Positions 17,145 to 34,032 of a stretch of DNA of 64,000 nt are shown piece by piece (the stretch's first letter is position 1; each line of letters starts with the position of its first letter). The stretch lies in assembly GCA_038206875.1 (NCBI GenBank), contig JBBRAK010000002.1:12333-76332 (forward strand). The letters run 5' to 3'. Position numbers and translations under genes: made by a program. Source of the stretch: Candidatus Saccharimonadales bacterium (GTDB lineage Bacteria; Patescibacteriota; Saccharimonadia; Saccharimonadales; JBBQAJ01). The notes beneath the pieces are model-generated. The model was not told the DNA's origin and did not search any database. It worked only from the letters and a program-made list of their open reading frames with translations.

Positions 17145-19295
17145 GTGTTAAACGACTTATTGGCGGGGCTTAACCCGGAACAAATGCGGGCTGTAGAAGC
17201 CACCGAAGGACCTCTGCTAATTCTTGCTGGAGCAGGAAGTGGCAAGACCAAAACACTCACCCACCGGATTGCTCACTTGATAGCTTCACGTAAAGCGACA
17301 CCCTACAATATATTGGCGGTAACTTTTACCAACAAAGCAGCTAAAGAAATGCGCGAACGGGTTGCTGAGCTGACGGGGGAAAATGCACAGATCCGCAGTT
17401 TTATGCCTTACATGGGAACATTCCACGGGATTTGTGTCCGTATCCTTAGGCAAGATGGCGAACACGTGCATGTTCCAAAAAACTTTGTAATATTTGACGA
17501 AAGTGACCGGCAAAGTGCAGTAAAACAAGCTAGCAAACAGCTCATGCTGGACGAAAAGGCCTATACTTCTAGGGCAATTTCTAGCTTGATAAGTAGTGCC
17601 AAAAACGAACTTATTTCTCCTGCCAACTATGCAGGCATGGGCAGTGGCCCTTTGCATAAAGCGGCCGCTCAGGTATATCCTCTGTACCAAAAAATTCTAA
17701 AAGATAATCAAGCACTAGATTTTGATGATTTAATTGGCAGGGTAGTACAACTTCTTCAAACAAACCAAGAGATTCGAGATAAATGGCGTAAACAGTTTGT
17801 ATATATAATGATAGACGAATATCAAGATACCAATGCAGCGCAGTACAAGCTGATAAAACTTCTCACTAACGACAAACACAACATCGCGGTAGTTGGTGAC
17901 GATTGGCAAAGTATTTACAGTTGGCGGGGAGCTGATTTTCGAAACATACTAAATTTCGAAAAAGACTATCCAAAAGCCACCATTATAAAACTTGAGCAAA
18001 ACTATCGAAGTACAAAATCTATTTTGGACGCTGCACATGCCGTAATTACCAAAAACGATCATCGCTCGGACAAAAAATTATGGACAGACCTCGGAGCAGG
18101 CAAGCCAGTTCAAATTACCCAAATTAATAGCGAACGGGCAGAGGGTGAAGCCATTATACGGCGAGTAAAAACGGCAACAGACATAAAAGCCCGTAGCTTC
18201 AAAGATTTTGCAGTCCTATATCGTACAAATGCCCAGAGTCGTGCTATAGAAGAGTCATTTATACGCTACGGTGTGCCTTACAGAATTGTTGGTGGACAGC
18301 GGTTTTATGACCGCAAAGAAATAAAAGATATTATGGCCTATTTACGGTTGATTTATCAGCCATCTGACAGAGTAAGTTTTGCACGTATAGTTAACGTACC
18401 TGGGCGAGGAATAGGAGCAAAATCAGTAGAAAATTTCTTTACATGGGCACAGAGCAATGAATTTTCATTGCAGGGCGCACTGCAAAGTGTGAAAAATTTA
18501 CCAGGATTAACTAACAAAGCTCGTGCAGGGTTTTTGGAACTCTCTGACGTCGTGAATTCTTTTAGAGAAATTATGGACAAAACACCTCTGCCAGTTTTGC
18601 TTGACAGTTTGTTGCGCAGGCTGGACTACATGTCATTTCTAGATGACAAAACACCGCAGGGTGATTCACGCCAGGAAAATGTAAAAGAACTTCTGAGCGT
18701 AGCCAAAAGTTATCAGGATGTGGGACTGGACGGGTTTTTGGAAGAAGTTGCGTTGATTAGCGACATAGACAGTGCTGATTTTGGCAACAACGCCGTCACT
18801 CTCATGACTCTGCATGCCGCCAAAGGCTTGGAATTTCCTGTAGTTTTTATGATAGGTATGGAAGAAACCTTATTCCCACATTCCCGAGCGCTTTACGACC
18901 AAGCCGAGATGGAAGAAGAACGACGGTTGTGCTACGTTGGTATGACCAGGGCCAAAGAAGAGCTAAATTTGCTACACGCCAGCAGTAGGCTTTTGTACGG
19001 GGGCATGCAACATAACCCGCCGTCTAGGTTTCTATCAGAAATAGACGGCGAAACCAACTTAGTCGGTGATTTTGGCGAACCAAACAACTACCAACCGTCT
19101 ATTGGGTTGCATGCTGAGGCAGAAGGTGAGGTACGATATGCACCAGATTTGGCCGAAGGTGATGGGGTTGTTCACCAGATATTTGGCAAGGGAACTGTAG
19201 TAGAGCTAGAGGGCGACAATGCCACAATCTACTTCAAAGGCAAAGGCACCAAAAAGCTAAACATAGCGTTCGCCCCGCTAGAAAAGTTGTCCTAA
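17145..19295 (+). CDS. pcrA: ATP-dependent DNA helicase PcrA/UvrD
   Basis: GTG start. Motifs AGAGSGKT, DEYQDTN, QNYRS, TLHAAKGLEF, YVGMTRAKE. Confidence 0.92.
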   Translation: MLNDLLAGLNPEQMRAVEATEGPLLILAGAGSGKTKTLTHRIAHLIASRKATPYNILAVTFTNKAAKEMRERVAELTGENAQIRSFMPYMGTFHGICVRILRQDGEHVHVPKNFVIFDESDRQSAVKQASKQLMLDEKAYTSRAISSLISSAKNELISPANYAGMGSGPLHKAAAQVYPLYQKILKDNQALDFDDLIGRVVQLLQTNQEIRDKWRKQFVYIMIDEYQDTNAAQYKLIKLLTNDKHNIAVVGDDWQSIYSWRGADFRNILNFEKDYPKATIIKLEQNYRSTKSILDAAHAVITKNDHRSDKKLWTDLGAGKPVQITQINSERAEGEAIIRRVKTATDIKARSFKDFAVLYRTNAQSRAIEESFIRYGVPYRIVGGQRFYDRKEIKDIMAYLRLIYQPSDRVSFARIVNVPGRGIGAKSVENFFTWAQSNEFSLQGALQSVKNLPGLTNKARAGFLELSDVVNSFREIMDKTPLPVLLDSLLRRLDYMSFLDDKTPQGDSRQENVKELLSVAKSYQDVGLDGFLEEVALISDIDSADFGNNAVTLMTLHAAKGLEFPVVFMIGMEETLFPHSRALYDQAEMEEERRLCYVGMTRAKEELNLLHASSRLLYGGMQHNPPSRFLSEIDGETNLVGDFGEPNNYQPSIGLHAEAEGEVRYAPDLAEGDGVVHQIFGKGTVVELEGDNATIYFKGKGTKKLNIAFAPLEKLS
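19232..19276 (+). repeat. copy 1 of a 45-bp perfect direct repeat (inside the pcrA 3' end)
   Basis: CTTCAAAGGCAAAGGCACCAAAAAGCTAAACATAGCGTTCGCCCC, identical to 19375-19419. Confidence 0.95.
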
Positions 19296-19374
19296 AAAGG
19301 GAAAAGAGCAACCAGACAAAATGTATTCCATTTTGCCTGCGTGATGAGAAAAACCGTAGGTTTGTCTTATGGGT

Positions 19375-19419
19375 CTTCAAAGGCAAAGGCACCAAAAAGC
19401 TAAACATAGCGTTCGCCCC
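19375..19419 (+). repeat. copy 2 of the 45-bp perfect direct repeat (intergenic)
   Basis: Identical 45-mer 143 bp downstream of copy 1. Similarity continues imperfectly for about 10 more nt (ctcgaaaag vs ctagaaaag). Confidence 0.95.
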
Positions 19420-19542
19420 CCTCGAAAAGATCTAAACTTTGAGTCTATGCGCATAGCTTAATAAGGGGTGATTTGTTAATATATTCAAGTGCTAAGCGTG
19501 AGAATTAATTAGTCACTACCAGAGCTCACAAAATCCATTTTT

Positions 19543-20757
19543 ATGATCAAGAATAAATTCTACAGACATGACAAAACACCCCGTGAAATTCACAAGCACC
19601 CGTTTGTGGTGCCAGTAGTTACGTTTATATTGCTAAGTTTTATCACTATGTTTGGACTGGTAGCACTAAATGGCCGTACTATTGGTCCCGACGACGCCCA
19701 CGTAGTCCAGCTTTCGGTAGACGACAAAAAACAAACCATTCCAACCAGGGCCATCTCTGTCGAAGATTTTTTGAAACGCGCAAATGTTGTATTGCAGGAA
19801 GGTGATGTAGTAGAGCCAAGCTCAGACACGTCCATAGATGCCGATAATTTTCGCATAAATGTATACCGGGCAAGACCAATTACTATTTTGGACGGTGATA
19901 AGCGAATCCAAGCTTTAAGTGCCGCTACTACAGCACGAAGTATCGCGAACCAAGCGGGGATTAAAGTGTTTCCAGAAGATGAGTTAAAACAAGAAACATC
20001 CTCTGATGTACTCAGAGACCAAGTCCTTGGCGACAAAATAACTATCAACAGAGCCACGCCAGCCAATCTAAATTTATACGGCACGCCAGTAGTTATAAGA
20101 ACGCACGCAAAAACCGTCAAAGAGTTGCTTAAAGAAAAAAACATAAACTTGAACAATGGCGACACAGTTCAACCAGCGGAAGAAACACCCATAGCACCAG
20201 AAATTCAAGTTTTTGTAACACGAGTCGGTACTCAAATAGTTACAACAGAAGAACCAATTGCTATGGAGGTTCAGACCACCGAAGATTCCAGCCTGAATTT
20301 TGGCGCAACAGCAGTCAGGCAAAAAGGTGCGCCAGGCAAAAAACTTGTTACCTACCAGCTAGAGCTACAAAACGGAACGGAGGTTGGCCGAAAAGTAATT
20401 CAGGAGGTTCGGACTCAGGAGCCGGTTTTGCAAATTGTTGCACGGGGTAAAGCTTTCAACGTTGACAAAGACAAAAGCACGGTCATGGCACTTGCGGGAA
20501 TAAATGTTGCTCGGGATTATCCATACGTTGACTATATAATTAACAAAGAATCACGGTGGAACCCCTTATCAAGAAATGTATCGTCAGGTGCGTACGGCTT
20601 AGGGCAAGCATATCCGGGCAGTAAAATGGCAGTATTTGGCGCGGATTGGGAAACCAACCCCGTCACACAACTAAAATGGGCTAATAGTTATGCGGTGACT
20701 CGTTACGGTAGTTGGTCGGAAGCATATCAACACTGGTTGTCTAGCCATGTCTGGTAA
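19543..20757 (+). CDS. RpfB/YabE-like cell-wall protein (DUF348 repeats, G5, C-terminal transglycosylase-like domain)
   Basis: N-terminal TM, then repeated DUF348-like segments and a G5-like segment (QKGAPGKKLVTYQLELQNG). C-terminal motif YIINKESRWNP..SGAYGLGQA..GSW. Confidence 0.7.
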   Translation: MIKNKFYRHDKTPREIHKHPFVVPVVTFILLSFITMFGLVALNGRTIGPDDAHVVQLSVDDKKQTIPTRAISVEDFLKRANVVLQEGDVVEPSSDTSIDADNFRINVYRARPITILDGDKRIQALSAATTARSIANQAGIKVFPEDELKQETSSDVLRDQVLGDKITINRATPANLNLYGTPVVIRTHAKTVKELLKEKNINLNNGDTVQPAEETPIAPEIQVFVTRVGTQIVTTEEPIAMEVQTTEDSSLNFGATAVRQKGAPGKKLVTYQLELQNGTEVGRKVIQEVRTQEPVLQIVARGKAFNVDKDKSTVMALAGINVARDYPYVDYIINKESRWNPLSRNVSSGAYGLGQAYPGSKMAVFGADWETNPVTQLKWANSYAVTRYGSWSEAYQHWLSSHVW

Positions 20758-21550
20758 CGCTGAACCGATTGCCAAAAAAAGTTTGGGGCAACACTGGCTA
20801 AATGACTTACCAACGCTTGAATATATCTGTGAGGAAGCCAAAATAAATGCTACCGACACAGTGCTAGAAATTGGACCTGGAACCGGTAATTTGACCAAAC
20901 TTTTGGTAAATTATGCCAGCCAAGTCGTGGCTGTAGAGTTTGACCAAAATCTAGCTGACCAGCTACCAAACCGGGTTAAGGCATCGAATTTGCAGGTAGT
21001 TAACCAAGATATACTAAAATTTGACTTAACCAAACTACAGCCAAACTACAAAGTTGTAGCCAACATACCATACTACTTGACCAGTAATTTGATTCGCACT
21101 CTTTCAGAGTCCACCAATCCGCCGATTTCCGCCGTGCTGTTAGTTCAAAAAGAAGTTGCTCAGCGCATATCGGCACCACCGGGTAAAATGTCATTGCTCT
21201 CGGTAAGCGCGCAGTTTTATTGGCATGTTGGACTTGGGGATATTGTACCGGCAAGACTTTTTTCACCACCACCCAAGGTTGATTCGCAGGTGATTACACT
21301 GGATATGCGCCTAGACCCACTTTTTCCAGATGTCGAAGAAAGGCAATTTTTCCGCCTGGTCAAAGCAGGATTTGCTAGTAGGCGAAAAACCCTTCTCAAC
21401 TCTTTGGCAGGGGGGCTCAGAACAGAGAAAGAAGCCGTTCAAAAAGCACTTGATGCGTGTCATATTTCATCTGGTTTACGCGCCCAAGCTTTGTCGCTGG
21501 AAAATTGGTACACGGTCTACAAAACGTTTACCGAACTAGAATTATTGTAA
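20747..21550 (+). CDS. rsmA: 16S rRNA (adenine1518/1519-N6)-dimethyltransferase
   Basis: Motifs LGQHWL and VLEIGPGTGNLT. 267 aa. Confidence 0.9.
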   Translation: MSGNAEPIAKKSLGQHWLNDLPTLEYICEEAKINATDTVLEIGPGTGNLTKLLVNYASQVVAVEFDQNLADQLPNRVKASNLQVVNQDILKFDLTKLQPNYKVVANIPYYLTSNLIRTLSESTNPPISAVLLVQKEVAQRISAPPGKMSLLSVSAQFYWHVGLGDIVPARLFSPPPKVDSQVITLDMRLDPLFPDVEERQFFRLVKAGFASRRKTLLNSLAGGLRTEKEAVQKALDACHISSGLRAQALSLENWYTVYKTFTELELL

Positions 21551-21631
21551 GTCCCCTACCCTTTCAAAAATAAACACTTGACGTGTTAAGTATTATTCAG
21601 CTACACTTGTAGCGTATAAAGGTTTTACTAT

Positions 21632-22096
21632 ATGGGTCCAACAAACAACATCGGTTACCTGCTCCAGCATCTATCTGGCGTTTTGGCCAAACAATCTGAC
21701 CAAGCACTGCAAGAACGGCTAGGGATAGGGTTTTCCCAGTTCAAAATATTGCGCGTTTTACAGCACAGCCCTCATACTCAACAGCGACAAATTGCCGAGT
21801 GGCTAGGTCAAACAGAAGCCAGTATAAGTAGGCAGATAAAACTCATGATAGAAAAAGGACTACTGGTGTCTACTGTAAGCCCCAAAAACCGTCGGGAGCA
21901 TATAACTACACCCACAACTAAAGGTGTGCGTATGACAGAAGAGTCGTTGAACGTGCTTAATTCGACTCACTCAAGCATGTTTAGTGAGCTAGGTGACAAA
22001 CAACAACACCAATTACTAGAGATTTTGTCGTACATGCACCAATACGCCTGTCAGCCTGGCAAAATCGGTGCTTGCCACCACCCTTTTAACACTTAA
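21632..22096 (+). CDS. MarR family transcriptional regulator
   Basis: Winged-helix pattern LRVLQHSPHTQQRQIAEWLGQTEASISRQIKLMIEKGLL. Confidence 0.85.
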   Translation: MGPTNNIGYLLQHLSGVLAKQSDQALQERLGIGFSQFKILRVLQHSPHTQQRQIAEWLGQTEASISRQIKLMIEKGLLVSTVSPKNRREHITTPTTKGVRMTEESLNVLNSTHSSMFSELGDKQQHQLLEILSYMHQYACQPGKIGACHHPFNT

Positions 22097-22121
22097 ATTA
22101 CGAAACATGAGAAGGAGAAAC

Positions 22122-23432
22122 ATGAACGACATCAAACAAAAAATGGCCAGTAGGGCGCTTCCAGCGGTTATATTCACAATTTTTCTAGATGTGCTTGGAG
22201 TTGGGATTTTACTACCAATAATCCCTCAGCTTTTGGCCAACCCTGGTTCAGCATATTATTTACTACCCGCTGGCTGGACTTTCAAGGGCGGATTGATACT
22301 GTTGGGGTGGTTAGTTGCAATTTACCCATTTATGCAGTTTTTATCTACACCAATTCTGGGTCAGTTATCTGACAGGTTCGGTCGTAAAAAAGTATTGGGT
22401 TTTAGTATAGCTGGGACGGCTTTAGGTTATGTATTGTTTGCAATTGGTATCATTACTAGAAACTTACCGTTGCTGTTTTTTAGTCGAGCATTTGACGGAA
22501 TAACTGGTGGAAATTTGAGTGTTGCCCAAGCTGTGATTGCAGACGTGACACCACCAAAAGATCGTACCAAAAATTTTGCACTTATAGGAGCGGCATTTGG
22601 TATGGGTTTTGTCATGGGGCCGTATATTGGCGCCAAACTTGCTACGCCCAACCTCAGCTTTTTTGGACTATTTAACACACCGCATTGGTTCAACCCTGCC
22701 ACACCTTTTTGGTTCACAGCTATACTTAGCGCGTTAAATGTTCTAGTTGTTCTGGTACTACTTCCAGAAACTCACAAACACATGAAAAAAGTAAAAATAA
22801 AAGTAAATCAATCCGTAAAAAACATCATAAAAGCAGCCACTTTCCCGGGACTTAGAGTTGTTTTCCCTTCGATATTTTTGTTCTGGGGTGGATTTGCATT
22901 TTTTCAAACATTTTTTACGGTTTTGCTTATACAAAAGCTCAAATTTAGCCCGAGTAACATTGGTGACTATTTTGCATATGTTGGAATATGGATTGCTATT
23001 ACCCAAGCAATCATAACACCACGAGTCGCAAAACGTTTCAAAAACTACCAAGTTTTGAGAGTCAGTTTGTTTGCGGTCGGGATTGGGCTATTGCTAAACT
23101 TATGGGCGCACAATACAGCTGAACTTTTGTTGGTAACCCCATTATTTGCAGTTTTTGTTGGGCAAACCATTGCCAACAGCACTTCGCTTGTCAGTAACTC
23201 CGTGGGGCCTGAAATACAGGGTGAAGTCCTGGGCATCAACTTCTCAGTTCAAGCTTTGGCGCAGGCCATACCAGCCGCACTTAGTGGGTATTTGGCAGAG
23301 ATTGGTATAAGCGCACCGGTGATTGTCGGTTCTGCGTTTGTGATATCAGGTGGAATTTTGTACTGGACCATCTACAGACCGTCCAAGCATGTCTTGTACG
23401 CCGAATCTGCTCCTGTAAGCGCCAGTCACTAG
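22122..23432 (+). CDS. MFS transporter (drug-efflux type)
   Basis: Start at ATG 22122 with GAAGGAG at 22111-22117. About 12 TM segments. MFS motif A is GQLSDRFGRKKVL. Confidence 0.88.
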   Translation: MNDIKQKMASRALPAVIFTIFLDVLGVGILLPIIPQLLANPGSAYYLLPAGWTFKGGLILLGWLVAIYPFMQFLSTPILGQLSDRFGRKKVLGFSIAGTALGYVLFAIGIITRNLPLLFFSRAFDGITGGNLSVAQAVIADVTPPKDRTKNFALIGAAFGMGFVMGPYIGAKLATPNLSFFGLFNTPHWFNPATPFWFTAILSALNVLVVLVLLPETHKHMKKVKIKVNQSVKNIIKAATFPGLRVVFPSIFLFWGGFAFFQTFFTVLLIQKLKFSPSNIGDYFAYVGIWIAITQAIITPRVAKRFKNYQVLRVSLFAVGIGLLLNLWAHNTAELLLVTPLFAVFVGQTIANSTSLVSNSVGPEIQGEVLGINFSVQALAQAIPAALSGYLAEIGISAPVIVGSAFVISGGILYWTIYRPSKHVLYAESAPVSASH

Positions 23433-23449
23433 CAAACTATTGACATAAG

Positions 23450-23458
23450 TGGTATAAT
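23450..23458 (+). promoter_or_regulatory. extended -10 promoter element for ssrA
   Basis: TGgTATAAT, 26 nt upstream of the mature tmRNA 5' end. Confidence 0.5.
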
Positions 23459-23483
23459 GTATAAACCTCAACAGAGGTAAATT

Positions 23484-23898
23484 GGGGCTGAAATTATGCT
23501 CGACGTTGGACTTTAACAGTTAGATCAGCAGGTCGCTTGTCAGCGTTATAGACAAACAATCGTAATTGCAACAGCTTTTACACGCGCAAAGAACTTTTTG
23601 CAGGACGGTGTAGCAACTTTGGTTGCTTCATTGACACCACAACTATCTTACGCAACTCTTTCAGCTTAATTGTCTGGAAGCATGCCTGAAACGACTCCAG
23701 TTAGTATCGGTGCATGATATATTTTCTGGACGCTCAAATACTCATGACCCATGACATTTGCTAAGACTTAGGGTAATCAGAGACTACTTTTTGGTCATTC
23801 ACCAGTAGACCTTTGATAAATTTAAATGACACAAACCTGTAGGATAGACTAACTAGCTAAACTAGCGGACGCGGGGGCAGTTCCCGCCAGCTCCTCCA
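23484..23898 (+). ncRNA. ssrA: tmRNA (SsrA)
   Basis: 5' GGGGCTGAAATTATGCTCGACG pairs with 3' ..GGACGCGGG-GGCAGTT-CCCGC-CAGCTCC-T-CCA, keeping G3:U70. An internal open frame ends ..LSYATLSA with TAA at 23667-23669 and is the candidate tag. The T-loop and discriminator are atypical. Confidence 0.85.
23880..23898 (+). repeat. direct repeat DR1 (tmRNA 3' end)
   Basis: GTTCCCGCCAGCTCCTCCA. Confidence 0.95.
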
Positions 23899-23908
23899 AA
23901 AAAAAAGT

Positions 23909-23934
23909 GTCTCAGCTCCTGCTGGGACTTTTTT
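23909..23934 (+). terminator. rho-independent terminator after ssrA
   Basis: GTCTCAGC (23909-23916) / GCTGGGAC (23921-23928), loop TCCT, then TTTTTT (23929-23934). Confidence 0.8.
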
Positions 23935-24062
23935 CTTGGGTTGATTCTGGGTGGGAACTGCCCCGAGAGGGTGAGGATTGCCAGATGGGAATCTGCAAGA
24001 GAAATTTCAGACACAAACTAGTTTGTGATATGTAAATTTATAAACAAGTAGCGTAGCTACGT

Positions 24063-24081
24063 GTTCCCGCCAGCTCCTCCA
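24063..24081 (+). repeat. direct repeat DR2 (perfect copy of the tmRNA 3' end)
   Basis: GTTCCCGCCAGCTCCTCCA, identical 19-mer 183 bp downstream of DR1. Confidence 0.95.
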
Positions 24082-24168
24082 TTCTACTTTGCCAAGGCTT
24101 CGTAGAATTGGCTAAGTCGAATGCCCTCCATAGCTTTATGCGACGGAGGGCCTTATTATATAATTTAT

Positions 24169-24408
24169 ATGTATTATGTTTATGTTTTGAAAAGTGAAAA
24201 TAATGAAGCAATTTATACGGGATATACGAGAAATCTAAAAACTAGACTGAGAGAACATAACTCTGGCAAGAGTACACACACAAACAAATATAAACCCTGG
24301 AAAATATTAGTTTACTTTGCGTTTGAAAATGAGAAATCTGCAAGAAATTTCGAAAAATATCTTAAGACCGGTTCTGGAATTGCGTTTGCCCGCAAACATT
24401 TACTCTGA
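24169..24408 (+). CDS. GIY-YIG nuclease family protein (single-domain, YhbQ/UPF0213-like)
   Basis: Start chosen at ATG 24169. MYYVYVLKSENNEAIYTGYTRNLKTRLREHN matches the GIY-YIG core. 79 aa, lying between DR2 and DR3. Confidence 0.8.
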   Translation: MYYVYVLKSENNEAIYTGYTRNLKTRLREHNSGKSTHTNKYKPWKILVYFAFENEKSARNFEKYLKTGSGIAFARKHLL

Positions 24409-24421
24409 GTTTTCCACGCTT

Positions 24422-24439
24422 GTCCCGCCAGCTCTTCCG
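24422..24439 (+). repeat. direct repeat DR3 (degenerate copy of the tmRNA 3' end)
   Basis: GTCCCGCCAGCTCTTCCG. It shares the 12-mer TCCCGCCAGCTC with DR1 and DR2. Confidence 0.7.
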
Positions 24440-24441
24440 TA

Positions 24442-24469
24442 TTGATAAATATTGATAATAGTGTATAAT
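24442..24469 (+). promoter_or_regulatory. sigma70-type promoter abutting the HAD gene start
   Basis: TTGATA (24442-24447), 16-nt spacer, TATAAT (24464-24469). The GTG start at 24477 is only 7 nt downstream, so the mRNA is leaderless or has a very short leader. Confidence 0.45.
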
Positions 24470-24476
24470 ATGCTCT

Positions 24477-25187
24477 GTGAATAAGCCACTTGCGCTATTT
24501 GATGTGGACAAAACGTTATTTGATGGTTTTTCGTATTTCCCTTTGCTGGAAATGCAAGTTAAAGAAGGTTTAGTTGACACCTCTGTGTCACAAGAGGCTG
24601 CGGCTAGTTTGGGGCAATATACCAACGGTCAGTTAGCTTATGAAGGTTTCGTTAAATCGTTACTGGATATGTATGCTATCGGGCTTAAGGGGAGGCCCGT
24701 AGGTGAAGTGTTGGACACGACTGAAGCATTTTTCAACCAAACGGGTGACTTCTTTGGATATGTTAGACCAACGGTAGATGATTTGAGGGCCTCGCATGAA
24801 CTTGGTATTGTAACTGGGGGGACTCAGTTCAGTGCAGAGGCAGTTGGCAAGGTTTTTGGAATAGAAACCACCCTAAGCTCAGTTATGGGGGTAGAAAATG
24901 AGCATCTTACAGGGAACATGGCGTCTTACTTAGCTACGACGCAAGAGAAGAGAGAGGCAATACATCATCTGACAGAAGTTCATCCTTACGGGGGTTCAAT
25001 GGGATTCGGTGACTCTGAGGGTGACACAGAAATGTTACGAGCTATAGAACATGCTGTTTGTATCCAGCCTACACCCGGGCTTCGTGGAATAGCCGTACAG
25101 GAGGGCTGGGCAATCGTTGACTCTCCTGATGAGCTTGCATCAACTACTGGTCTGTGGGTAGTTAAACATGCTCTAGTTGTTGATTAA
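24477..25187 (+). CDS. HAD-IB family hydrolase (SerB-like)
   Basis: GTG start. Motif I FDVDKTL and motif IV GDSEGDTEML. Confidence 0.8.
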   Translation: MNKPLALFDVDKTLFDGFSYFPLLEMQVKEGLVDTSVSQEAAASLGQYTNGQLAYEGFVKSLLDMYAIGLKGRPVGEVLDTTEAFFNQTGDFFGYVRPTVDDLRASHELGIVTGGTQFSAEAVGKVFGIETTLSSVMGVENEHLTGNMASYLATTQEKREAIHHLTEVHPYGGSMGFGDSEGDTEMLRAIEHAVCIQPTPGLRGIAVQEGWAIVDSPDELASTTGLWVVKHALVVD

Positions 25188-25439
25188 CTGATGGGTGTAC
25201 TTAACTAGGAAACTACTAACCTCTTTCGCCTTTCCTCCTCACGTCGATACTCTATCCAGTCATCCCAGAGTAAATACCGCCATCTGCGTATTTCATCAAA
25301 GATGAGGGGTGAACTTTTTACAAGGAACTTCGCTACAATCAACTTTATCTCTGTCGTCTGAGGTTTTTTTGGATATTGTTGCTAAGATATATGTATTGGA
25401 AGATTACATTTCAGAAAACCTAAGAAACGGACCATCAAA

Positions 25440-26117
25440 GTGATTTTTATTATAATTGGCGTTTTGGTAGTGGGCGAGCTTGCGGCGCTTGGATGGCTAG
25501 CGTCCACTGTTTCCTCGTACAAAAACTTTTGGGTACAAAAAGCTAAAGAGTCAGGCGAAATTACGTATTTAGCGCTAGGAGATTCCGCGGCGCAAGGAAT
25601 AGGTGCTACAAGTCCTAGCAGGGGATACGTCGGTCTAATTGGCGCTAGGCTAGAAAAACAGACAAACAAAAAAGTTCGTATTGTCAATTTGAGTAAAACT
25701 GGTGCCAAAATGGAAGACTATCTCAAAGAACAGGCACCCCAAATTAAAGACATAAATGCAGATTATGTGACTATAGAAATCGGTGCAAATGACATTCTTG
25801 GTTTTGACGCTGACAAATATCGCGCCAGTTTTAAGAAAGTACTTGCCACGCTTCCTAATGGGGCATTTGTGTCAAATATGCCTTTGTTTAACAGTCGTCC
25901 ATCCAGCACAAACAATGCCAAACAGGCCAGTAAAATTATCAGTGAAGAGTTGAAGAATTACCCAAAACTTAAATTTGTTGATTTACAGAAACAGGTAGCC
26001 GAACATCAGAGTATTTTTGGTTTTGCACCAGACCTATTTCACCCAAACAACCTGAGCTACAAAAACTGGGCCGAAGCGTTCTGGATAAGTATTAAAACCG
26101 ACAAGCAGTTTAAGTAA
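25440..26117 (+). CDS. SGNH/GDSL hydrolase
   Basis: GTG start and N-terminal TM. Block motifs LALGDSAAQG, IEIGANDI, DLFHPN. Confidence 0.82.
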   Translation: MIFIIIGVLVVGELAALGWLASTVSSYKNFWVQKAKESGEITYLALGDSAAQGIGATSPSRGYVGLIGARLEKQTNKKVRIVNLSKTGAKMEDYLKEQAPQIKDINADYVTIEIGANDILGFDADKYRASFKKVLATLPNGAFVSNMPLFNSRPSSTNNAKQASKIISEELKNYPKLKFVDLQKQVAEHQSIFGFAPDLFHPNNLSYKNWAEAFWISIKTDKQFK

Positions 26118-26159
26118 ACATTACGCGCAGTATTATCTTTATCGCACGTCGTCAATAAA

Positions 26160-26372
26160 CTAGGGTTTTTTGCGGAGCATCAGCTTGAGGTTGGACAGGT
26201 AGTGGTTGGGGTTTACTGCAGGGTGTCCTTTTAGATAAACCAAATGTGTTTGTACAAAAGAAATACGATTGCCTGGCCACAAATCTCCATTTGCTCGGTA
26301 GGCAGATTTGGTTAACAAACTTTTGTCTGTTTCCATAGCCTGCAAAGCTGTTGTAATGTCCGTTTCTTCCAT
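26160..26372 (-). CDS. hypothetical protein
   Basis: 70-aa ORF, the only minus-strand gene in this stretch. It is preceded by an 18-codon basic sORF. No motif recognised. Confidence 0.45.
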   Translation of the reverse strand: MEETDITTALQAMETDKSLLTKSAYRANGDLWPGNRISFVQTHLVYLKGHPAVNPNHYLSNLKLMLRKKP

Positions 26373-26527
26373 GATAAATAGTCCTTAAACTTTAGGTTTC
26401 TTTGGTTTTTTGACTTCTTTTCGCCCTCGATCTTTCGACATTGCTTGTCTCCCTTTGATATCCATTATGCGCTCAAGGGTGTAAAAATGCTAATCCAACC
26501 GGGATATGACGCTATTGACAATGCGCT

Positions 26528-27199
26528 ATGGCAGGGTATAGTCATGAGCAGGATATTCTAAACATAAGAGGTAAAACTGTGTCAAAAATAAAAATCTCAA
26601 CAAAACGAACAAACAAAAACCAAAGTAAAGTCAAAAGAGCCCTTAACTGGTTCAAGCCAACTACTCCGCTAAAAGGCATGCTCCTATTTGCCCTAGTGTT
26701 TGCCATCGGTGGCGGTAGCTACTATGTCAGCAAAAGTCACGCCGCAACAGCGACATACACAGAGACAGCTACTCAATTAACGCTTTCAAATGGAGCTTCG
26801 TTAGTGAAGGAAACCAAAGGCTCCAAATCATCCACGACGGTTGTAAATATAGTAGACGATGGAGCAAGAAGTACCCAGGTTATGTTTACTAATCAAGCGA
26901 TGGTCATTAACTTACAAAAACTTTTAAACGGGCATATGGCTAGGGTATGTGCCAATGTTCGTGTACTTACCAATGGAGCATGGGTACAAATAGGTAGCAT
27001 TGCTCTAATGAATCCCCAGCCAGGACAGCAAATTAATGGCATTTGGTATTCGCAATGGACAACCGCAAGCAATACGTACTCATATATCTGCACGCCTTAT
27101 GGCATGATTGATATTACAAAAGGTGGTTTCCTGCCCGAAGTCAGAACTTCATATTCTGCTTTACACCTGTCATTTATGACGGTAGAGATATTAAATTAA
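26528..27199 (+). CDS. hypothetical membrane-anchored/secreted protein
   Basis: 223-aa ORF with one N-terminal TM (GMLLFALVFAIGGGSYYV). The start is uncertain. Confidence 0.55.
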   Translation: MAGYSHEQDILNIRGKTVSKIKISTKRTNKNQSKVKRALNWFKPTTPLKGMLLFALVFAIGGGSYYVSKSHAATATYTETATQLTLSNGASLVKETKGSKSSTTVVNIVDDGARSTQVMFTNQAMVINLQKLLNGHMARVCANVRVLTNGAWVQIGSIALMNPQPGQQINGIWYSQWTTASNTYSYICTPYGMIDITKGGFLPEVRTSYSALHLSFMTVEILN

Positions 27200-27258
27200 C
27201 TTAAATGACCATAAGGCTAATCTGAAGAATAGCACTCAATTGGTATAATGACTACACC

Positions 27259-28650
27259 TTGTCTAGGAAATATGTCTTAAGCGCCTCAGTTCATGTAAAA
27301 ATGTTTGCCACCTGTTGGATTATAGTTAGTTTACTTTGGTCCTGGCTGTTCCTCGTTGCAGTTGGTCGGCTAGCCGACCAACCCACTGTTGCCTATATCA
27401 CTATTACCTTTGCCTTTCTAGTCATCACCATTATTTCTGCGGTTATTTTTACGGTAGCTATCTGGTATTTACGCCGTTCGTATCAAAATAAACCAAACTG
27501 GACATGGCTACTACAGGCAACTGTTATTTGGGCCCTAGCCGAAGCATTAATTGCTTGGTTAGTTGCTTTTGTCTGGATAGGCAGAAACGGGAGCATAGAC
27601 AACATATTGCCTTTTAGCTCGCTGACGCCATTCATTATGTACACTCCGCTGAAGTTTCTGAGCCGTTTCACGGGATACTATGGACTTTCAGCGGTTGTGG
27701 TAATTGGTATAGCCGGTCTGTGGTTGAAAAAGGTTCGAAAGTACGTTGCTTACTATTGGCTAGTAGTTACATTACTCGCTATCGGATCATGGTGGCTCTA
27801 TAGAACACCCACTGGCACAACAGAACAAATCACTATTGTAGCCGAGACACTGGAACACAAAGCTCCGGTAGATGCTTCTGGCAGTAAGCTAGTTGTTCTA
27901 CCGGAATATGGTCTTGATGACTTTAATCAAAGCAAACCAGCTACTCGCTTTAAACCGCAAACAGATAACTACTACTTTGTTGGCTCCAAACAAACTTCAG
28001 TGACCAAGGGTCTCACAAACGAGCTGTTATTTGGTTCAAAAGACAATGGTATTACTAGCAAGCAACAAAAGACCCGGCTAATTCCGGGCGGAGAATATCT
28101 CTCTTTCGGTGTAGAAATAGCTCTGCGATTGTTTTCTAAAACGACCTATACCGACTTTCAAGTGCGGCGTGAAGTGGTTCGGGGTATCAAACCAATCCAA
28201 CCGTTTTATATTGATCAAAATCTTATAATCGGAAGCGAAGTTTGTTCGAGCATCATGACTCCTAGAGATTATCGCCAACTTACCCAGAAAGGTTCAACTG
28301 TCCTAGCTAACTCAGCTTCACTCGAGATATTCGAAGGTTCGCGGTTATTTGCTTGGCAACATCGCGGATTAGCTAACTTTATGGCAGTGGCTAACGCCAG
28401 ACCATTCTTGCAATCTACCAATCATTGGCCAGCCTTTGCGCTAGATTACGATGGAAATGTGGTCGCAACCGTACAGCCAGTAGGATCACGTGATGTGAAC
28501 ATTCAAACAAACACCAAAAAGACACCATACACCTATCTGGGTGAGTGGGTGGTGATTTTAGGTGGAGTGTACATATCCGTACTGCTGATAAGAAAAATAT
28601 TCGAAAAACTAAAACAACTTTATATTTTGCGTAAAAATAGCAGTAAATAA
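27259..28650 (+). CDS. apolipoprotein N-acyltransferase-like protein (polytopic N-terminus plus CN-hydrolase domain)
   Basis: Multiple N-terminal TMs. Candidate CN-hydrolase triad context: VVLPEYG (Glu), KTRLIPGGEY (Lys), VCSSIMTP (Cys). TTG start at 27259 or ATG at 27301. TGgTATAAT at 27241-27249. Confidence 0.7.
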   Translation: MSRKYVLSASVHVKMFATCWIIVSLLWSWLFLVAVGRLADQPTVAYITITFAFLVITIISAVIFTVAIWYLRRSYQNKPNWTWLLQATVIWALAEALIAWLVAFVWIGRNGSIDNILPFSSLTPFIMYTPLKFLSRFTGYYGLSAVVVIGIAGLWLKKVRKYVAYYWLVVTLLAIGSWWLYRTPTGTTEQITIVAETLEHKAPVDASGSKLVVLPEYGLDDFNQSKPATRFKPQTDNYYFVGSKQTSVTKGLTNELLFGSKDNGITSKQQKTRLIPGGEYLSFGVEIALRLFSKTTYTDFQVRREVVRGIKPIQPFYIDQNLIIGSEVCSSIMTPRDYRQLTQKGSTVLANSASLEIFEGSRLFAWQHRGLANFMAVANARPFLQSTNHWPAFALDYDGNVVATVQPVGSRDVNIQTNTKKTPYTYLGEWVVILGGVYISVLLIRKIFEKLKQLYILRKNSSK

Positions 28651-28661
28651 CCGAGCTAGGG

Positions 28662-28690
28662 TTGACTATTAAAAATTATTATGCTAATAT
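28662..28690 (+). promoter_or_regulatory. sigma70-type promoter of the DEAD-box helicase gene
   Basis: TTGACT (28662-28667), 17-nt spacer, TAATAT (28685-28690). Leaves a leader of about 100 nt. Confidence 0.55.
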
Positions 28691-28794
28691 TAGGTTAATT
28701 GTTTCAGATGAATCCGGGTTAGTTAGTATTTTTACTTTGGTTTCATTACAGCAATGAGAGTAAAAAACTAATAAACTATAAGGATTCTTTTTTT

Positions 28795-29988
28795 ATGCCT
28801 AGTTCTAATTATTCATTTCGCGGAAGTCGCCGGCCCGGTCCTGGCGCTAAACCGCAACGCCGTAGTGCTCCACGTAGCAATGGTAGACGCGGTCAATACA
28901 TTGACCCAGCGCGTTTTATCAAAGTAGCCAAGGGTTTAGAAGTTGATGCGTATATTTCAACACATCAGTTTGATGATTTTGAAATTCAGCCAATATTAAA
29001 AACCAATTTAGCTTCCAAGGGTTATGTTACGCCGTCTCCAATCCAAGACCAGACAATACCACAGGGTCTAAGCGGTAAAGACATCATTGGTATTGCCAAC
29101 ACTGGCACCGGCAAAACCGCTGCTTTTGCAGTGCCAATACTTAACAAGTTAATCATGGACAAAAGTTCCAAAGCTCTGATAATCGCCCCAACTAGAGAAC
29201 TAGCCGAACAAATTCAAGACGAATTTCGGGCAATTGGTCGTGGTAGTGGTCTGTTCGGAACTCTACTTATTGGTGGATCAAGTATGGGCGCACAACTGCG
29301 CGATTTACGGGATAACCCAAGAGTAGTTATAGGCACGCCTGGTCGTATAAAAGACCACATGGAACGTGGAACGTTGCGGCTCAACAGCTTCAATACAGTA
29401 GTTTTAGATGAAGTGGATCGAATGCTGGACATGGGCTTTATCCTGGACGTTCGACACATATTGAGTCAACTCAAACAAGATAGGCAGTCGTTCTTTTTCT
29501 CTGCTACCATGGACAGCAAAGTTAAATCTTTGATTCAGACATTTTCAAACGACCCTGTAACTGTTTCTGTCAAAACAGGCGATACAGCAGACAACGTGCA
29601 CCAAGACGTAGTCAAATATGCTGGTTCTAGTGACAAAATAGACAAACTCCATGACGTGTTACTCAAAGCTGGTAAAGTGATAGTTTTTGACGAAACACAA
29701 CGTAAAGTTGAACGTCTTAGCCAAGAACTAATCACTAGAGGTTTTTCTGCCGATGCAATTCACGGTGGCAAATCTCAAAGTCAGCGTCAACGCGCTCTAA
29801 AGCGGTTTAAGACCAACGACATCACAATATTGGTTGCTACAGATGTAGCTGCCCGTGGGATTGATGTAATTGACATAACTCACGTCGTAAACTTTTCTCT
29901 GCCACAGTCTTATGAAGATTATGTGCACCGAATTGGTCGGACTGGACGTGCTGGTCGAACCGGTCACGCCCTTACCTTTGTGCAATAG
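28795..29988 (+). CDS. DEAD-box ATP-dependent RNA helicase
   Basis: Motifs TGTGKTAAF, PTRELA, DEVD, SAT, HRIGRTGRAG. Arg-rich N-terminus. Confidence 0.92.
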   Translation: MPSSNYSFRGSRRPGPGAKPQRRSAPRSNGRRGQYIDPARFIKVAKGLEVDAYISTHQFDDFEIQPILKTNLASKGYVTPSPIQDQTIPQGLSGKDIIGIANTGTGKTAAFAVPILNKLIMDKSSKALIIAPTRELAEQIQDEFRAIGRGSGLFGTLLIGGSSMGAQLRDLRDNPRVVIGTPGRIKDHMERGTLRLNSFNTVVLDEVDRMLDMGFILDVRHILSQLKQDRQSFFFSATMDSKVKSLIQTFSNDPVTVSVKTGDTADNVHQDVVKYAGSSDKIDKLHDVLLKAGKVIVFDETQRKVERLSQELITRGFSADAIHGGKSQSQRQRALKRFKTNDITILVATDVAARGIDVIDITHVVNFSLPQSYEDYVHRIGRTGRAGRTGHALTFVQ

Positions 29989-30172
29989 TTGGAACTGCCA
30001 CAAAACGGCACTTTTTGGCTGAAAATTTGCGCTCCGATGCTCACGTACCCAAATGTACGCTCCGCTTCGGTGCTCAATTTTGAACCAAACTGCACCATTT
30101 TGTAAAAGTCCAATCTCATCAAAACAGTTTTTCTCTTGGTGGTTAGAGCAGGCAAGATGATATGCTGGTAGT

Positions 30173-31420: not shown

Positions 31421-31598
31421 CACCCGTGGCACACTGCTGTGTCAATTTTTGCAGTGCTCCTTCAGCATACATTTTGTACTCTTACGTTCGCGCTTCGTAA
31501 TTTCCTTGCATTGCACTCACGTGTGTTACCCGCCTTGTAATATAGGTTTTCAACTCCGGTTGTCTATTTTTTGGTCTGATTAAGTATAATTTATATAG

Positions 31599-31772
31599 AT
31601 GAATGATGAAGATACAGATAGACTACCGTGTGCAGAAAAACTTAGTTTTGATACCAAAGTCCAAGCTCAGGCTAGTGCTGTTGTGGCCGACTGGCAACAC
31701 GGCGCAAAGCTAAAAGTATATTTATGCAAAGATTGCGAACTTTGGCATTTAGCCAGCAATTCACCAGATTGA
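31599..31772 (+). CDS. small Cys-containing (zinc-ribbon-like) protein, below the ORF-track cutoff
   Basis: 57 codons: MNDEDTDRLPCAEKLSFDTKVQAQASAVVADWQHGAKLKVYLCKDCELWHLASNSPD*. Cys/His spacing is C-x31-C-x2-C-x3-H. Confidence 0.45.
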   Translation: MNDEDTDRLPCAEKLSFDTKVQAQASAVVADWQHGAKLKVYLCKDCELWHLASNSPD

Positions 31773-31893
31773 CAGAATAAATTCAACGTTTTATAATCCA
31801 GACATGTTTAGTAAATTTGAAGTTTCTGGGATGATGCCTATGCCACGCCCTGGGCTGGTTTTGCGTTAAACTTCAATAATTCAACAGAAACAC

Positions 31894-31915
31894 ACCGGCT
31901 CTGGGCCGGTTTTTT
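31894..31915 (+). terminator. rho-independent terminator
   Basis: ACCGGC (31894-31899) / GCCGGT (31905-31910), 5-nt loop, then a T-run through 31915. Confidence 0.75.
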
Positions 31916-31948
31916 AATTAATACTAGAAAAGCATAAGGAATTTAGTA

Positions 31949-32527: not shown

Positions 32528-32582
32528 AATATAAATCCAGAATTGTTGTTCTTACATCTGCAAACAGTTAAACTTATATACA

Positions 32583-34031: not shown

Positions 34032-34032
34032 A

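What the first reader, a model, noticed from the sequence alone, without database searches (positions are those of the whole stretch)
23880..24440. Three direct copies of the tmRNA 3' end bracketing a stand-alone GIY-YIG gene
The last 19 nt of ssrA (GTTCCCGCCAGCTCCTCCA, 23880-23898) recur perfectly at 24063-24081. A degenerate third copy lies at 24422-24439 and shares TCCCGCCAGCTC.

Segment 1 (164 bp, between DR1 and DR2) contains:
- the ssrA terminator;
- an inverted copy of the T-arm (GGGAACTGCCCC at 23953-23964, against GGGGCAGTTCCC at 23874-23885);
- a perfect 16-bp palindrome, CACAAACTAGTTTGTG (24012-24027).

Segment 2 (between DR2 and DR3) contains two hairpins (ATTCTAC/GTAGAAT at 24081-24108 and GCCCTCC/GGAGGGC at 24122-24150) and a 79-aa single-domain GIY-YIG nuclease gene.

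Repeated att-like scars at ssrA normally mark tandem integrase-driven islands, but no integrase is present here. Two readings are possible. Either two islands decayed down to a 340-bp cassette, or a minimal GIY-YIG cassette itself uses the ssrA 3' end as its target. The second reading would be unusual.
Basis: partly seen in the sequence, partly recalled or inferred. Interest (0 to 1): 0.6.

Follow-up and report, generated by a model that had tools for sequence, protein, structure and literature searches.

The report
Nuclease mini-cassette attached to tmRNA gene
A 79-residue nuclease gene with a conserved folded leader sits directly after the tmRNA gene; it is one case of a widespread pattern, which I could not find described, in which such genes lie next to tRNA-type genes and are often flanked by partial copies of them.

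Summary
The last 19 nt of a real but divergent tmRNA gene (23484-23898) recur perfectly at 24063-24081 and degenerately (15/19) at 24421-24439. An intact 79-aa single-domain GIY-YIG gene lies at 24169-24408.

The interpretation needs re-cutting.
- **Old ssrA link.** In related Saccharibacteria contigs the same cassette (two-hairpin leader plus GIY-YIG) follows the tmRNA CCA directly. There is no 164-nt segment and no repeats. The ssrA-nuclease link therefore predates the repeats.
- **Different targets.** The same cassette sits after tRNA-Lys and tRNA-Arg in other genomes, always starting right after CCA.
- **Wider pattern.** Of 79 loci encoding relatives, from many phyla, 49 have a tRNA or tmRNA beside the nuclease gene: 58 on the same strand, 1 opposite. 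About a third carry partial copies of that tRNA. Tandem arrays occur. Integrases are essentially absent.
- **Segment 1 is its own unit.** It has a bidirectional terminator, an inverted T-arm copy, a core and a direct copy of the 3' end. The same layout follows six other tRNA genes.

My reading is a tRNA-end-associated selfish nuclease cassette, later separated from ssrA by a 183-bp insertion. That the nuclease drives insertion is inferred, not shown. I found no published description.

The parts
23484..23898 (+). ssrA (tmRNA) gene. It has an unusual T-loop (GGCAGUU) and a U discriminator. The tag frame is 23568-23669.
   Evidence: Rfam RF00023 full-length match, E = 1e-14, 41.2 bits, below the gathering score of 47. 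ARAGORN finds nothing. Its two aligned terminal stretches are 81-89% identical to the L203 tmRNA, which scores 65 bits. Tag translation.
23880..23898 (+). DR1: the last 19 nt of tmRNA, running from the T-loop to CCA.
23899..24062 (.). Segment 1, called the S unit here. In order it holds a bidirectional terminator, an inverted copy of the T-arm, a purine-rich middle, a palindrome and a small hairpin just before DR2. It contains no ORF related to GIY-YIG.
   Evidence: The same layout follows six other tRNA genes: L002, L005, L018, L045, L071, L072.
23896..23939 (.). Terminator hairpin (stem 23909-23928) flanked by an A-run and a T-run, so it could terminate in both directions.
   Evidence: (I5).
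23950..23964 (.). Inverted copy of the tmRNA T-arm (23874-23888). Together with the terminator it forms an imperfect palindrome of about 90 nt.
   Evidence: I2, 93% complementary. DNA fold z = -6.5. Own-tail score 12 against 6-8 for other tRNA tails.
24012..24044 (.). The 16-nt palindrome CACAAACTAGTTTGTG. Its right arm continues as an inverted copy (20/24) of tmRNA 23813-23836.
   Evidence: (I1).
24048..24060 (.). Small hairpin GTAGC-GTA-GCTAC immediately before DR2. It sits at the T-loop breakpoint, as hairpin insertions do in other partial tRNA copies.
   Evidence: scored as terminator-like on the minus strand. Analogous insertions seen.
24063..24081 (+). DR2: a perfect second copy of the 19-mer. 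Its junction with the leader (CTCCTCCA|TTCTAC) matches the tmRNA-leader junction of relative L202.
24082..24168 (+). Conserved structured leader. The 5' arm TTCTAC can pair with either of two downstream complements (24102-24108, a perfect GTAGAAT, and 24116-24122, a degenerate GTCGAAT). Hairpin 2 is GCCCTCC...GGAGGGC (24123-24151) with an invariant internal AGC/GCGA motif. An AT-rich stretch with a TATAAT-like hexamer precedes the ATG.
   Evidence: RNA fold z = -4.6. Homologous leaders in L001-L005, L202-L205 and L207. Hairpin 2 covariation. No Rfam family matches.
24169..24408 (+). Stand-alone GIY-YIG nuclease gene, 79 aa, of the UPF0213 / Slx1-like type.
   Evidence: Pfam PF01541, E = 1e-17. 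PDB 1zg2, 1ywl and SLX1 matches. Family invariants Y5, Y16, R26, H30, E62.
24421..24439 (+). DR3: a degenerate copy (15/19) of the tmRNA 3' end, 13 nt after the stop codon.
   Evidence: Gapped alignment gives p < 0.005 against shuffles.
24442..24469 (+). Promoter-like site (TTGATA, 16-nt spacer, TATAAT; 11/12) for the downstream HAD hydrolase gene (24477-25187). It marks the end of the feature.

Best explanation
The 340-bp segment is a small, self-contained cassette: a structured leader plus a 79-aa Slx1-like GIY-YIG nuclease gene. It belongs to a widespread class of such cassettes that lie at the ends of tRNA and tmRNA genes, always on the same strand.

**History in this clade (inferred from relatives).**
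- The cassette was joined to ssrA exactly after the CCA and was probably transcribed with it.
- The degenerate copy after the gene (DR3) is the remnant of the tmRNA 3' end duplicated or displaced when the cassette entered. The same kind of copy follows about one third of such cassettes elsewhere.
- Later, in this lineage only, a 183-bp unit entered the tmRNA T-loop-to-3'-end region. The unit is segment 1 plus one 19-mer, and it inserted as a small circle recombining with its target would.
- That event made the perfect DR1/DR2 pair. It gave ssrA its own terminator and cut the cassette off from ssrA transcription.

**Mechanism (inferred, not shown).**
- The nuclease drives rare spread of its own cassette by breaking tRNA-type genes at conserved loops.
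- The cassette then enters by repair or ligation, using the tRNA sequence it carries.
- The enzyme that moved segment 1 is unknown.
For: **Protein.** It is an intact minimal GIY-YIG protein with the catalytic Tyr, Tyr, Arg, His and Glu invariant across 30 relatives.

**Same cassette, different targets, same junction.** The cassette starts right after CCA of:
- tmRNA (window DR2, L202, L203, L205);
- tRNA-Arg (L004);
- tRNA-Lys-CTT (L005);
- tRNA-Lys-TTT (L207).

**Turnover at ssrA.** L203 has an ORF-less leader of one type followed by a 5'-truncated cassette of another type.

**Census of 79 loci.**
- 49 loci have an adjacent same-strand tRNA or tmRNA.
- Strand counts are 58 same against 1 opposite.
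- tRNA density is 0.87 per kb near the gene against 0.063 per kb further away.
- Partial copies of the adjacent tRNA occur in 21 of 58 cases against 1 of 258 controls.
- Right-hand copies are significant in 13 of 33 downstream-type cases, including the window; two of the 13 (L021, L074) may reflect another nearby tRNA gene.
- Tandem arrays occur, some with identical units: L007, L015, L017, L023, L030, L032.

**Neighbours.** Nearest genes are unrelated housekeeping genes; 3 of 137 are integrases. The window has none within about 10 kb.

**Leader.**
- Hairpin 2 is 97.4% paired, with 5 of 7 outer pairs compensatory and 0 of 500 shuffles as good. It has G-U pairs on the sense strand.
- The motif TTCGC follows 13 of 28 nuclease-adjacent tRNAs against 1 of 54 others (my count).

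**Segment 1.** It is a recurrent unit with constant layout and size, 156-178 nt, at seven different tRNA-type genes. The two cassettes preceded by such a unit (window, L005) are also the two of this leader type with complete flanks that keep a clear right-hand copy; four with complete flanks (L004, L203, L205, L207) have neither.
Against: - No cleavage or movement is shown.
- The protein has no DNA-binding domain that could explain site choice.
- Two thirds of downstream-type cassettes have no detectable right-hand copy.
- Identical proteins P0064 and P0122 always sit in the same context across 10 samples each, so there is no sign of current mobility.
- The ssrA link looks vertically inherited. 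Nuclease identity of 68-76% is in line with 69% for the neighbouring HAD protein, and there is partial synteny. A host function would produce the same picture.
- DR3 is better preserved than an insertion older than the clade would predict.
- The L202 contig starts inside the T-arm, so an upstream segment-1-like unit cannot be excluded there.
- The 79 loci were picked by similarity to one protein. They are not an unbiased census.
Confidence: 0.55

Rival explanations
1. Remnants of integrase-driven islands. Two elements integrated one after the other into the ssrA 3' end by a tyrosine integrase and then decayed, or were small integrase-less elements moved in trans. They left attL/attR-type repeats. 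The nuclease gene is cargo.
For: - The repeat runs from the T-loop to the 3' end, which I recall (not checked here) as a usual identity block for tRNA/tmRNA-integrating elements.
- The order (perfect inner pair, degenerate outer copy) fits serial integration.
- Classical ssrA islands with a displaced 3' end copy exist in the data: L145 has a P4-type integrase next to the copy.
- Segment-1-like units have the layout expected of a Campbell-type insertion.
- 3 of 137 neighbours are integrases.
Against: - No integrase lies within about 10 kb in the window or next to the great majority of the 79 loci.
- Relatives carry the cassette fused to the tmRNA with no repeats.
- The same nuclease family and leader recur at many different tRNAs, with the ORF abutting the partial tRNA copy. 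Random cargo of decayed islands would not do this.
- Copies of the 5' part of the tRNA are as common as 3' copies. From memory, that is not the usual integrase pattern.
Confidence: 0.2
2. Host function. The small nuclease works on tRNA or tmRNA transcripts or on their highly transcribed genes, and is kept in their operons. The leader is its regulatory or processing signal. The repeats are by-products of local recombination and have nothing to do with mobility.
For: - Orientation is strictly shared: 58 same-strand against 1 opposite.
- The leader starts at the tRNA 3' end and behaves as a sense-strand RNA structure with G-U pairs.
- The ssrA link is conserved across a Saccharibacteria clade.
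- Context is stable within populations.
- A published fusion of an Slx1-like domain to a TrmH-type tRNA methyltransferase hints at RNA metabolism (PMC1564403).
Against: - Several different copies occur per locus and per genome, and there are tandem arrays of identical units.
- 18 different tRNA types serve as partners, with no fixed one.
- Partial tRNA copies lie next to the ORF.
- There is an ORF-less leader and a cassette replacement in L203.
- Many contigs break at the cassette.
- The cassette is absent from other tmRNA loci with a similar 3' end: L103 group, L131, L174.
Confidence: 0.15
3. Chance similarity or an assembly artefact that duplicated the tmRNA end.
For: Short repeats can be produced by mis-assembly. 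The source genome could not be retrieved.
Against: - Three copies of a 12-mer were found where 0.02 is expected.
- The sequences between the copies are unique and differ from each other.
- An independent locus, L005, has the same three-copy layout at a tRNA-Lys gene.
Confidence: 0.03

Closest known systems
Free-standing GIY-YIG homing endonuclease genes, e.g. phage T4 segB in the tRNA gene cluster (PMC2330249; PMC13096335)
   Same: Both are GIY-YIG nuclease genes lying among tRNA genes without an intron. segB cuts the tRNA gene region of a rival genome and is copied in with its flanks. It can also drive local amplification.
   Different: Seg proteins are about 200 aa or more and have a separate DNA-binding domain (recalled, not checked here); this protein is the bare 79-aa catalytic domain of the Slx1-like branch. 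The cassettes here are chromosomal, occur in many phyla, start exactly at the tRNA end, have a conserved folded leader and are often flanked by partial tRNA copies. Cleavage has not been tested.
Genomic islands and prophages integrated at ssrA or tRNA 3' ends (e.g. Dehalococcoides ssrA islands, PMC3146451)
   Same: Both leave direct repeats of the tRNA/tmRNA 3' end that start in or near the T-loop. Tandem arrays form at the same gene, and the element restores the gene.
   Different: Those elements are kilobases long and carry an integrase next to the gene. Here the units are 183 and 358 bp with no integrase. Copies of the 5' part of the tRNA are also frequent.
Prokaryotic stand-alone Slx1-like / UPF0213 proteins (PDB 1zg2 BH0048, 1ywl EF2693; PMC1564403)
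   Same: Same fold and size, same conserved residues, and function unknown.
   Different: No link to tRNA genes, leaders or repeats is described for that family in the papers I could search.
REP elements with their RAYT transposase, and integron cassettes with attC (comparison from my own knowledge)
   Same: Both pair a small gene, or no gene, with folded palindromic DNA that marks the unit. Both form arrays of short units at one site.
   Different: The enzymes are unrelated (HUH transposase, tyrosine recombinase). Neither has tRNA-end specificity. The comparison is an analogy only.

Membership tests
GIY-YIG superfamily, stand-alone Slx1-like / UPF0213 branch | Sequence match to the GIY-YIG domain | tested here: met
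   Pfam PF01541, E = 1.1e-17, 64.5 bits against a cut-off of 22.6. PDB 1zg2, E = 1.3e-6; also 1ywl and SLX1.
GIY-YIG superfamily, stand-alone Slx1-like / UPF0213 branch | Catalytic residues: Tyr of GIY, Tyr of YIG, Arg, His, Glu | tested here: met
   Y5, Y16, R26, H30 and E62 are invariant in 30 aligned relatives.
GIY-YIG superfamily, stand-alone Slx1-like / UPF0213 branch | Single domain of about 80-100 aa with no accessory domain | tested here: met
   The ORF is 79 aa. The upstream in-frame extension is not conserved.
GIY-YIG superfamily, stand-alone Slx1-like / UPF0213 branch | Nuclease activity | not testable with these tools
   Requires biochemistry.
Homing endonuclease gene (free-standing) | Separate sequence-specific DNA-binding module | tested here: not met
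   Only the catalytic domain is present.
Homing endonuclease gene (free-standing) | Presence/absence polymorphism at the same site among close relatives | tested here: inconclusive
   Two species with identical proteins show the cassette fixed in 10 of 10 samples each. More distant tmRNA loci lack it. No strain-level relatives of the window were available.
Homing endonuclease gene (free-standing) | Cleaves the cassette-less allele near the insertion point | not testable with these tools
   Requires biochemistry.
Integrase-driven island at ssrA or tRNA | Direct repeats of the gene's 3' end at both ends of the element | tested here: met
   DR1/DR2 are perfect and DR3 is 15/19.
Integrase-driven island at ssrA or tRNA | Tyrosine or serine recombinase gene within or next to the element | tested here: not met
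   None in 17145-34845 of the window. Only 3 of 137 nearest neighbours in related loci.
tmRNA (Rfam RF00023) | Covariance-model score at or above the gathering threshold | tested here: not met
   41.2 bits against 47, although the match is full length with E = 1e-14. ARAGORN is negative.
tmRNA (Rfam RF00023) | tRNA-like ends, an internal tag frame, and homology to accepted tmRNAs | tested here: met
   The acceptor and T-arm align. There is a 33-codon tag frame. The two aligned terminal stretches are 81-89% identical to the L203 tmRNA, which scores 65 bits.
Any Rfam RNA family (leader and segment 1) | Match to a curated covariance model | tested here: not met
   Nothing relevant at E up to 10 in the window region. 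Nothing for 16 + 5 related loci.

The most novel reading that the evidence does not exclude
These are autonomous mobile elements of about 0.3-0.45 kb whose only protein is an 80-residue GIY-YIG nuclease. They would be among the smallest self-mobilising DNA elements known. They target the ends or conserved loops of tRNA and tmRNA genes in many bacterial phyla, ride on the host gene's transcription through a dedicated folded leader, and rebuild the gene by carrying a copy of the part they displace. Segment-1-type units would then be gene-less riders on the same or a related activity.
Probability: 0.25. Interest if true: 0.85.

Novelty: new variant of a known kind. Interest (0 to 1): 0.62.

Why it matters
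- **A testable role for an unassigned family.** Stand-alone Slx1-like GIY-YIG proteins are very common in bacterial genomes and especially in Patescibacteria, and they have no assigned role. A strict, co-oriented link to tRNA and tmRNA genes, with partial copies of those genes and a conserved leader, suggests a selfish nuclease cassette specialised on tRNA-type genes.
- **tRNA annotation.** It would explain many of the partial tRNA genes that confuse tRNA annotation.
- **Two candidate new elements.** It adds a candidate new structured RNA (the leader) and a candidate new miniature insertion unit (segment 1).
- **Size limit for mobile DNA.** If the nuclease alone suffices for insertion, the lower size limit for autonomous mobile DNA would drop markedly.

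Tried and rejected
- **Retrieving the source contig.** Exact look-ups of the window's own HAD and GIY proteins, and of their 100% database entry (P0001), found nothing.
- **HAD neighbours as a route to relatives.** HAD homologues (P0002, P0003) are not next to ssrA, so this gave no empty-site comparison.
- **The single metagenome scan.** I put an N at the discriminator position. Only about 10 hits were tmRNA ends or island copies.
- **Viral contigs.** There were no matches for the 19-mer, the hairpin-1 motif or the segment-1 core.
- **Is CCA special to cassette-adjacent tRNAs?** No: 14 of 28 against 23 of 54.
- **Segment 1 as a decayed GIY-YIG gene.** No tblastn match was found even at E = 100, and there is no DNA similarity to any cassette. 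The shared 11-mer AATCTGCAAGA (D3) does not extend.
- **Segment 1 homologues by profile search.** nhmmer found none beyond the three used to build the profile.
- **The 95-aa ORF from 24121.** Its frame and stop codons are not conserved in relatives.
- **The GC palindrome CCTGCCTGCCGGCAGGCAGG as cassette-specific.** This holds in the bacterial loci but not in viral contigs.
- **Identical proteins in different contexts, as proof of recent jumps.** None were found.
- **Group I intron remnants.** The flanks are too short, and published Patescibacteria tRNA introns sit at position 35/36 and mostly lack endonuclease genes (PMC13011429).
Full report

Yes. The 19-mer GTTCCCGCCAGCTCCTCCA is at 23880-23898 and again, perfectly, at 24063-24081. 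A 15/19 copy is at 24421-24439. The shared 12-mer occurs three times in the window against 0.02 expected.

The first copy is the 3' end of a tmRNA gene, 23484-23898.
- Rfam aligns it full length with E = 1e-14, but at 41.2 bits it is below the curated 47 bits.
- ARAGORN misses it.
- Its T-loop (GGCAGUU) and U discriminator are unusual.
- It has a 33-codon tag frame.
- Its two aligned terminal stretches are 81-89% identical to a tmRNA that passes the threshold (L203).

The terminator, the inverted T-arm copy (15 nt), the 16-nt palindrome, the two hairpins and the 79-aa GIY-YIG ORF (24169-24408; Pfam E = 1e-17) are all as described.

**2. Surroundings.**

The neighbours are ordinary genes. Upstream are UvrD, a G5-domain protein, RsmA, MarR and an MFS transporter. 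Downstream are a HAD hydrolase with its own strong promoter-like site right after the third repeat, a GDSL lipase, a DEAD helicase, trehalase, MetRS and TatD. No recombinase lies within about 10 kb. The window holds one copy of the nuclease gene and one of its leader.

**3. The nuclease.**

It is the bare catalytic domain of the Slx1-like / UPF0213 branch (PDB 1zg2, 1ywl, SLX1). That branch is described as the minimal stand-alone form with unknown function (PMC1564403). In 30 relatives Y5, Y16, R26, H30 and E62 are invariant, so the protein is probably active and under selection.

**4. What relatives show at ssrA.**

The closest homologues are 68-76% identical.
- In L203 and L205 a complete tmRNA gene is followed, immediately after CCA, by the same kind of leader, the nuclease gene and a T-run. 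There is no 164-nt segment, no second 19-mer and no third copy.
- L202 is the closest relative. It has the same odd T-loop and U discriminator, and it shows the same tmRNA-end|TTCTAC junction that the window has at DR2. Its contig starts inside the T-arm, so what lies upstream cannot be seen.
- L014 (another Saccharibacterium) and L007 (Cloacimonadaceae, two tandem units) also have tmRNA followed by the nuclease gene.
- Partial synteny (a trehalase gene on the tmRNA's upstream side in L203, a DEAD helicase right after the nuclease gene in L205) and similar divergence of the neighbouring HAD protein (69%) suggest that the ssrA-nuclease link is inherited in this clade.
- L203 also shows turnover: an ORF-less leader of one type is followed by a 5'-truncated cassette of the window's type.
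- More distant tmRNA genes with a similar 3' end (L103 group, L131, L174) have neither repeats nor cassette. The repeats are therefore not a fixed feature of ssrA.

**5. The wider pattern.**

A scan of one genome per species returned 79 loci encoding relatives.
- In 49 loci a tRNA or tmRNA gene lies within 350 nt upstream or 200 nt downstream of the nuclease gene. There are 58 such genes on the same strand and 1 on the opposite strand.
- Local tRNA density is 0.87 per kb against 0.063 per kb in the rest of the same loci.
- Eighteen tRNA types are involved.

There are two mirror layouts.
- **tRNA upstream.** The cassette follows the tRNA, and a copy of the tRNA's 3' part often follows the ORF. 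That copy usually starts in or near the T-loop.
- **tRNA downstream.** A copy of the tRNA's 5' part precedes the ORF. It often ends at position 22 in the D-loop and often has a GC-rich hairpin inserted at the break.

Further counts:
- Partial copies scoring at least 15 are found for 21 of 58 adjacent tRNAs against 1 of 258 controls.
- A right-hand copy is significant in 13 of 33 downstream-type cases, including the window; two of these (L021, L074) may come from another downstream tRNA.
- Tandem arrays of two or three units occur, some with identical units (L017, L030).
- Nearest neighbours are unrelated genes, and 3 of 137 are integrases.
- The same leader type as in the window starts exactly after CCA of tRNA-Arg (L004), tRNA-Lys-CTT (L005) and tRNA-Lys-TTT (L207).

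**6. The leader.**

It is conserved from Saccharibacteria to Alphaproteobacteria and Acidobacteriota.
- A 5' arm can pair with either of two downstream complements.
- A second hairpin then has a 7-bp stem, a 3x3 internal loop with invariant AGC/GCGA, and a short apical stem.
- For this hairpin 97.4% of cells pair and 5 of 7 outer pairs show compensatory changes. No shuffle of 500 does as well, and slid controls collapse.
- G-U pairs on the sense strand point to an RNA structure, or at least a sense-strand one. This fits transcription from the tRNA promoter.
- The motif TTCGC follows 13 of 28 nuclease-adjacent tRNAs but 1 of 54 others (my count).
- No Rfam family matches.

**7. Segment 1 is a separate, recurrent unit.**

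The same architecture follows six other tRNA genes in these loci: L002, L005, L018, L045, L071 and L072.
- The tRNA 3' end is followed by a terminator, flanked by an A-run and a T-run in most of them.
- An inverted copy of that tRNA's own T-arm comes 41-72 nt after the gene.
- A middle part follows; a purine-rich core is shared by L045, L071 and L072.
- The unit ends with a direct copy of the tRNA 3' end, often just after a small hairpin.
- The gap is always 156-178 nt, and no nuclease ORF lies inside.
- In the window the T-arm, the terminator and the inverted copy form an imperfect palindrome of about 90 nt (z = -6.5).

The order (repeat, terminator, inverted arm, core, repeat) is what a Campbell-type insertion of a 183-bp circle carrying one copy of the target end would give. 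This is inference. No enzyme is identified, no Rfam family matches, and profile and viral searches found no further copies.

Only the window and L005 have such a unit directly in front of a nuclease cassette. They are also the two cassettes of this leader type with complete flanks that keep a clear right-hand copy, while four with complete flanks (L004, L203, L205, L207) have neither. L204 may carry a degenerate right-hand copy, but its contig starts inside the leader. This hints that one recombination activity on that gene end made both kinds of repeat.

**8. How it most likely works.**

*Shown:*
- an intact minimal nuclease gene with a conserved folded leader;
- a precise junction at the tRNA/tmRNA 3' end at several different genes;
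- strict co-orientation;
- frequent partial target copies and tandem arrays;
- no integrase;
- an old ssrA link in this clade, plus a lineage-specific 183-bp insertion.

*Inferred:*
- The cassette is selfish, uses the host gene's transcription, and spreads rarely when its nuclease breaks a tRNA-type gene. Entry would be by repair or ligation through the tRNA sequence the cassette carries.
- DR3 is what is left of the displaced tmRNA end.
- Segment 1 entered later, gave ssrA its own terminator and separated the cassette from it. No strong promoter-like site precedes the nuclease gene now.

**9. Against this reading.**
- No activity data exist, and the protein has no DNA-binding module.
- Most cassettes lack a right-hand copy.
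- Two species with identical proteins show the cassette fixed in every sample.
- DR3 is better kept than an ancient scar should be.

The main rivals are decayed or trans-mobilised integrase elements, and a host role in tRNA/tmRNA biology with repeats as by-products.

**10. Known or new?**

Four full-text searches combining GIY-YIG with tmRNA, tRNA genes, tRNA fragments, UPF0213/YhbQ/COG2827 and Patescibacteria found no description of tRNA-attached minimal GIY-YIG cassettes. The nearest published cases are:
- T4 segB in the phage tRNA cluster (PMC2330249, PMC13096335);
- integrase islands at ssrA (PMC3146451);
- the uncharacterised Slx1-like family (PMC1564403).

Subscription-only literature was not searchable. 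I rate it a new variant of a known kind: a free-standing selfish nuclease gene combined with tRNA-end targeting. There is a real chance that it is more than that.

Noticed in passing
L030 2961-2980 and 3319-3338; L035 2952-2971; L072 2968-2987; L028 2416-2459; L017 2947-2966; viral loci L216-L250: The GC palindrome CCTGCCTGCCGGCAGGCAGG and its variants sit inside the D-loop or T-loop of the partial tRNA copies next to nuclease genes; all 10 copies in the 79 loci are within 187 nt of the ORF. In viral contigs the exact 20-mer occurs 42 times, almost never near a GIY gene. Those copies are often flanked by short duplications of the surrounding sequence (L218, L224, L234), as if the hairpin were mobile in its own right.
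   Followed up: partly
L023 3208-3263; L028, L029, L035, L052 at the ORF/tRNA junction: In Bacteroidota-type cassettes the nuclease ORF reads into the downstream tRNA gene and stops at the conserved TAG of the D-loop (tRNA positions 20-22). ORF and tRNA therefore overlap by 22 nt, and RNase P cleavage at the tRNA 5' end would leave a stop-less mRNA.
   Followed up: no
window 23484-23898: The tmRNA gene escapes ARAGORN and falls below the Rfam gathering score. It has a GGCAGUU T-loop, a U discriminator and a long 33-residue tag ending in ATLSA. L202 shares the odd T-loop and discriminator.
   Followed up: partly
L203 2336-2554: This locus holds a tmRNA, then a complete leader of one type with no ORF, then a 5'-truncated leader of the window's type plus the nuclease gene. 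It looks like replacement of one cassette by another at ssrA.
   Followed up: partly
L024 2824-2975: There are three and a half tandem copies of a 32-nt unit that carries the leader motif TTCGCTAAAGCTTCG, between tRNA-Ser and the nuclease gene.
   Followed up: no
L045 3449-3604; L071 5290-5460; L072 2537-2711: Segment-1-like units at three different tRNA genes (Lys, Asp, Tyr) in three Patescibacteria share a core, GGGAAAGGGT..GAAAACGGGAGTTTTC, which is not derived from the tRNA. No Rfam match was found. It could be a small RNA or a recombination site.
   Followed up: partly
L202 1-30; L204 1-40; L001 1-10: Several metagenome contigs begin or end inside the leader or the tRNA-end junction. This is expected if these sequences are repeated within the genome or community.
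   Followed up: no
window 24155-24182, minus strand: A promoter-like site (10/12) inside the start of the nuclease gene points back across the leader towards the small hairpin at 24048-24060, which scores as terminator-like on that strand. It might give a short antisense RNA over the leader.
   Followed up: no
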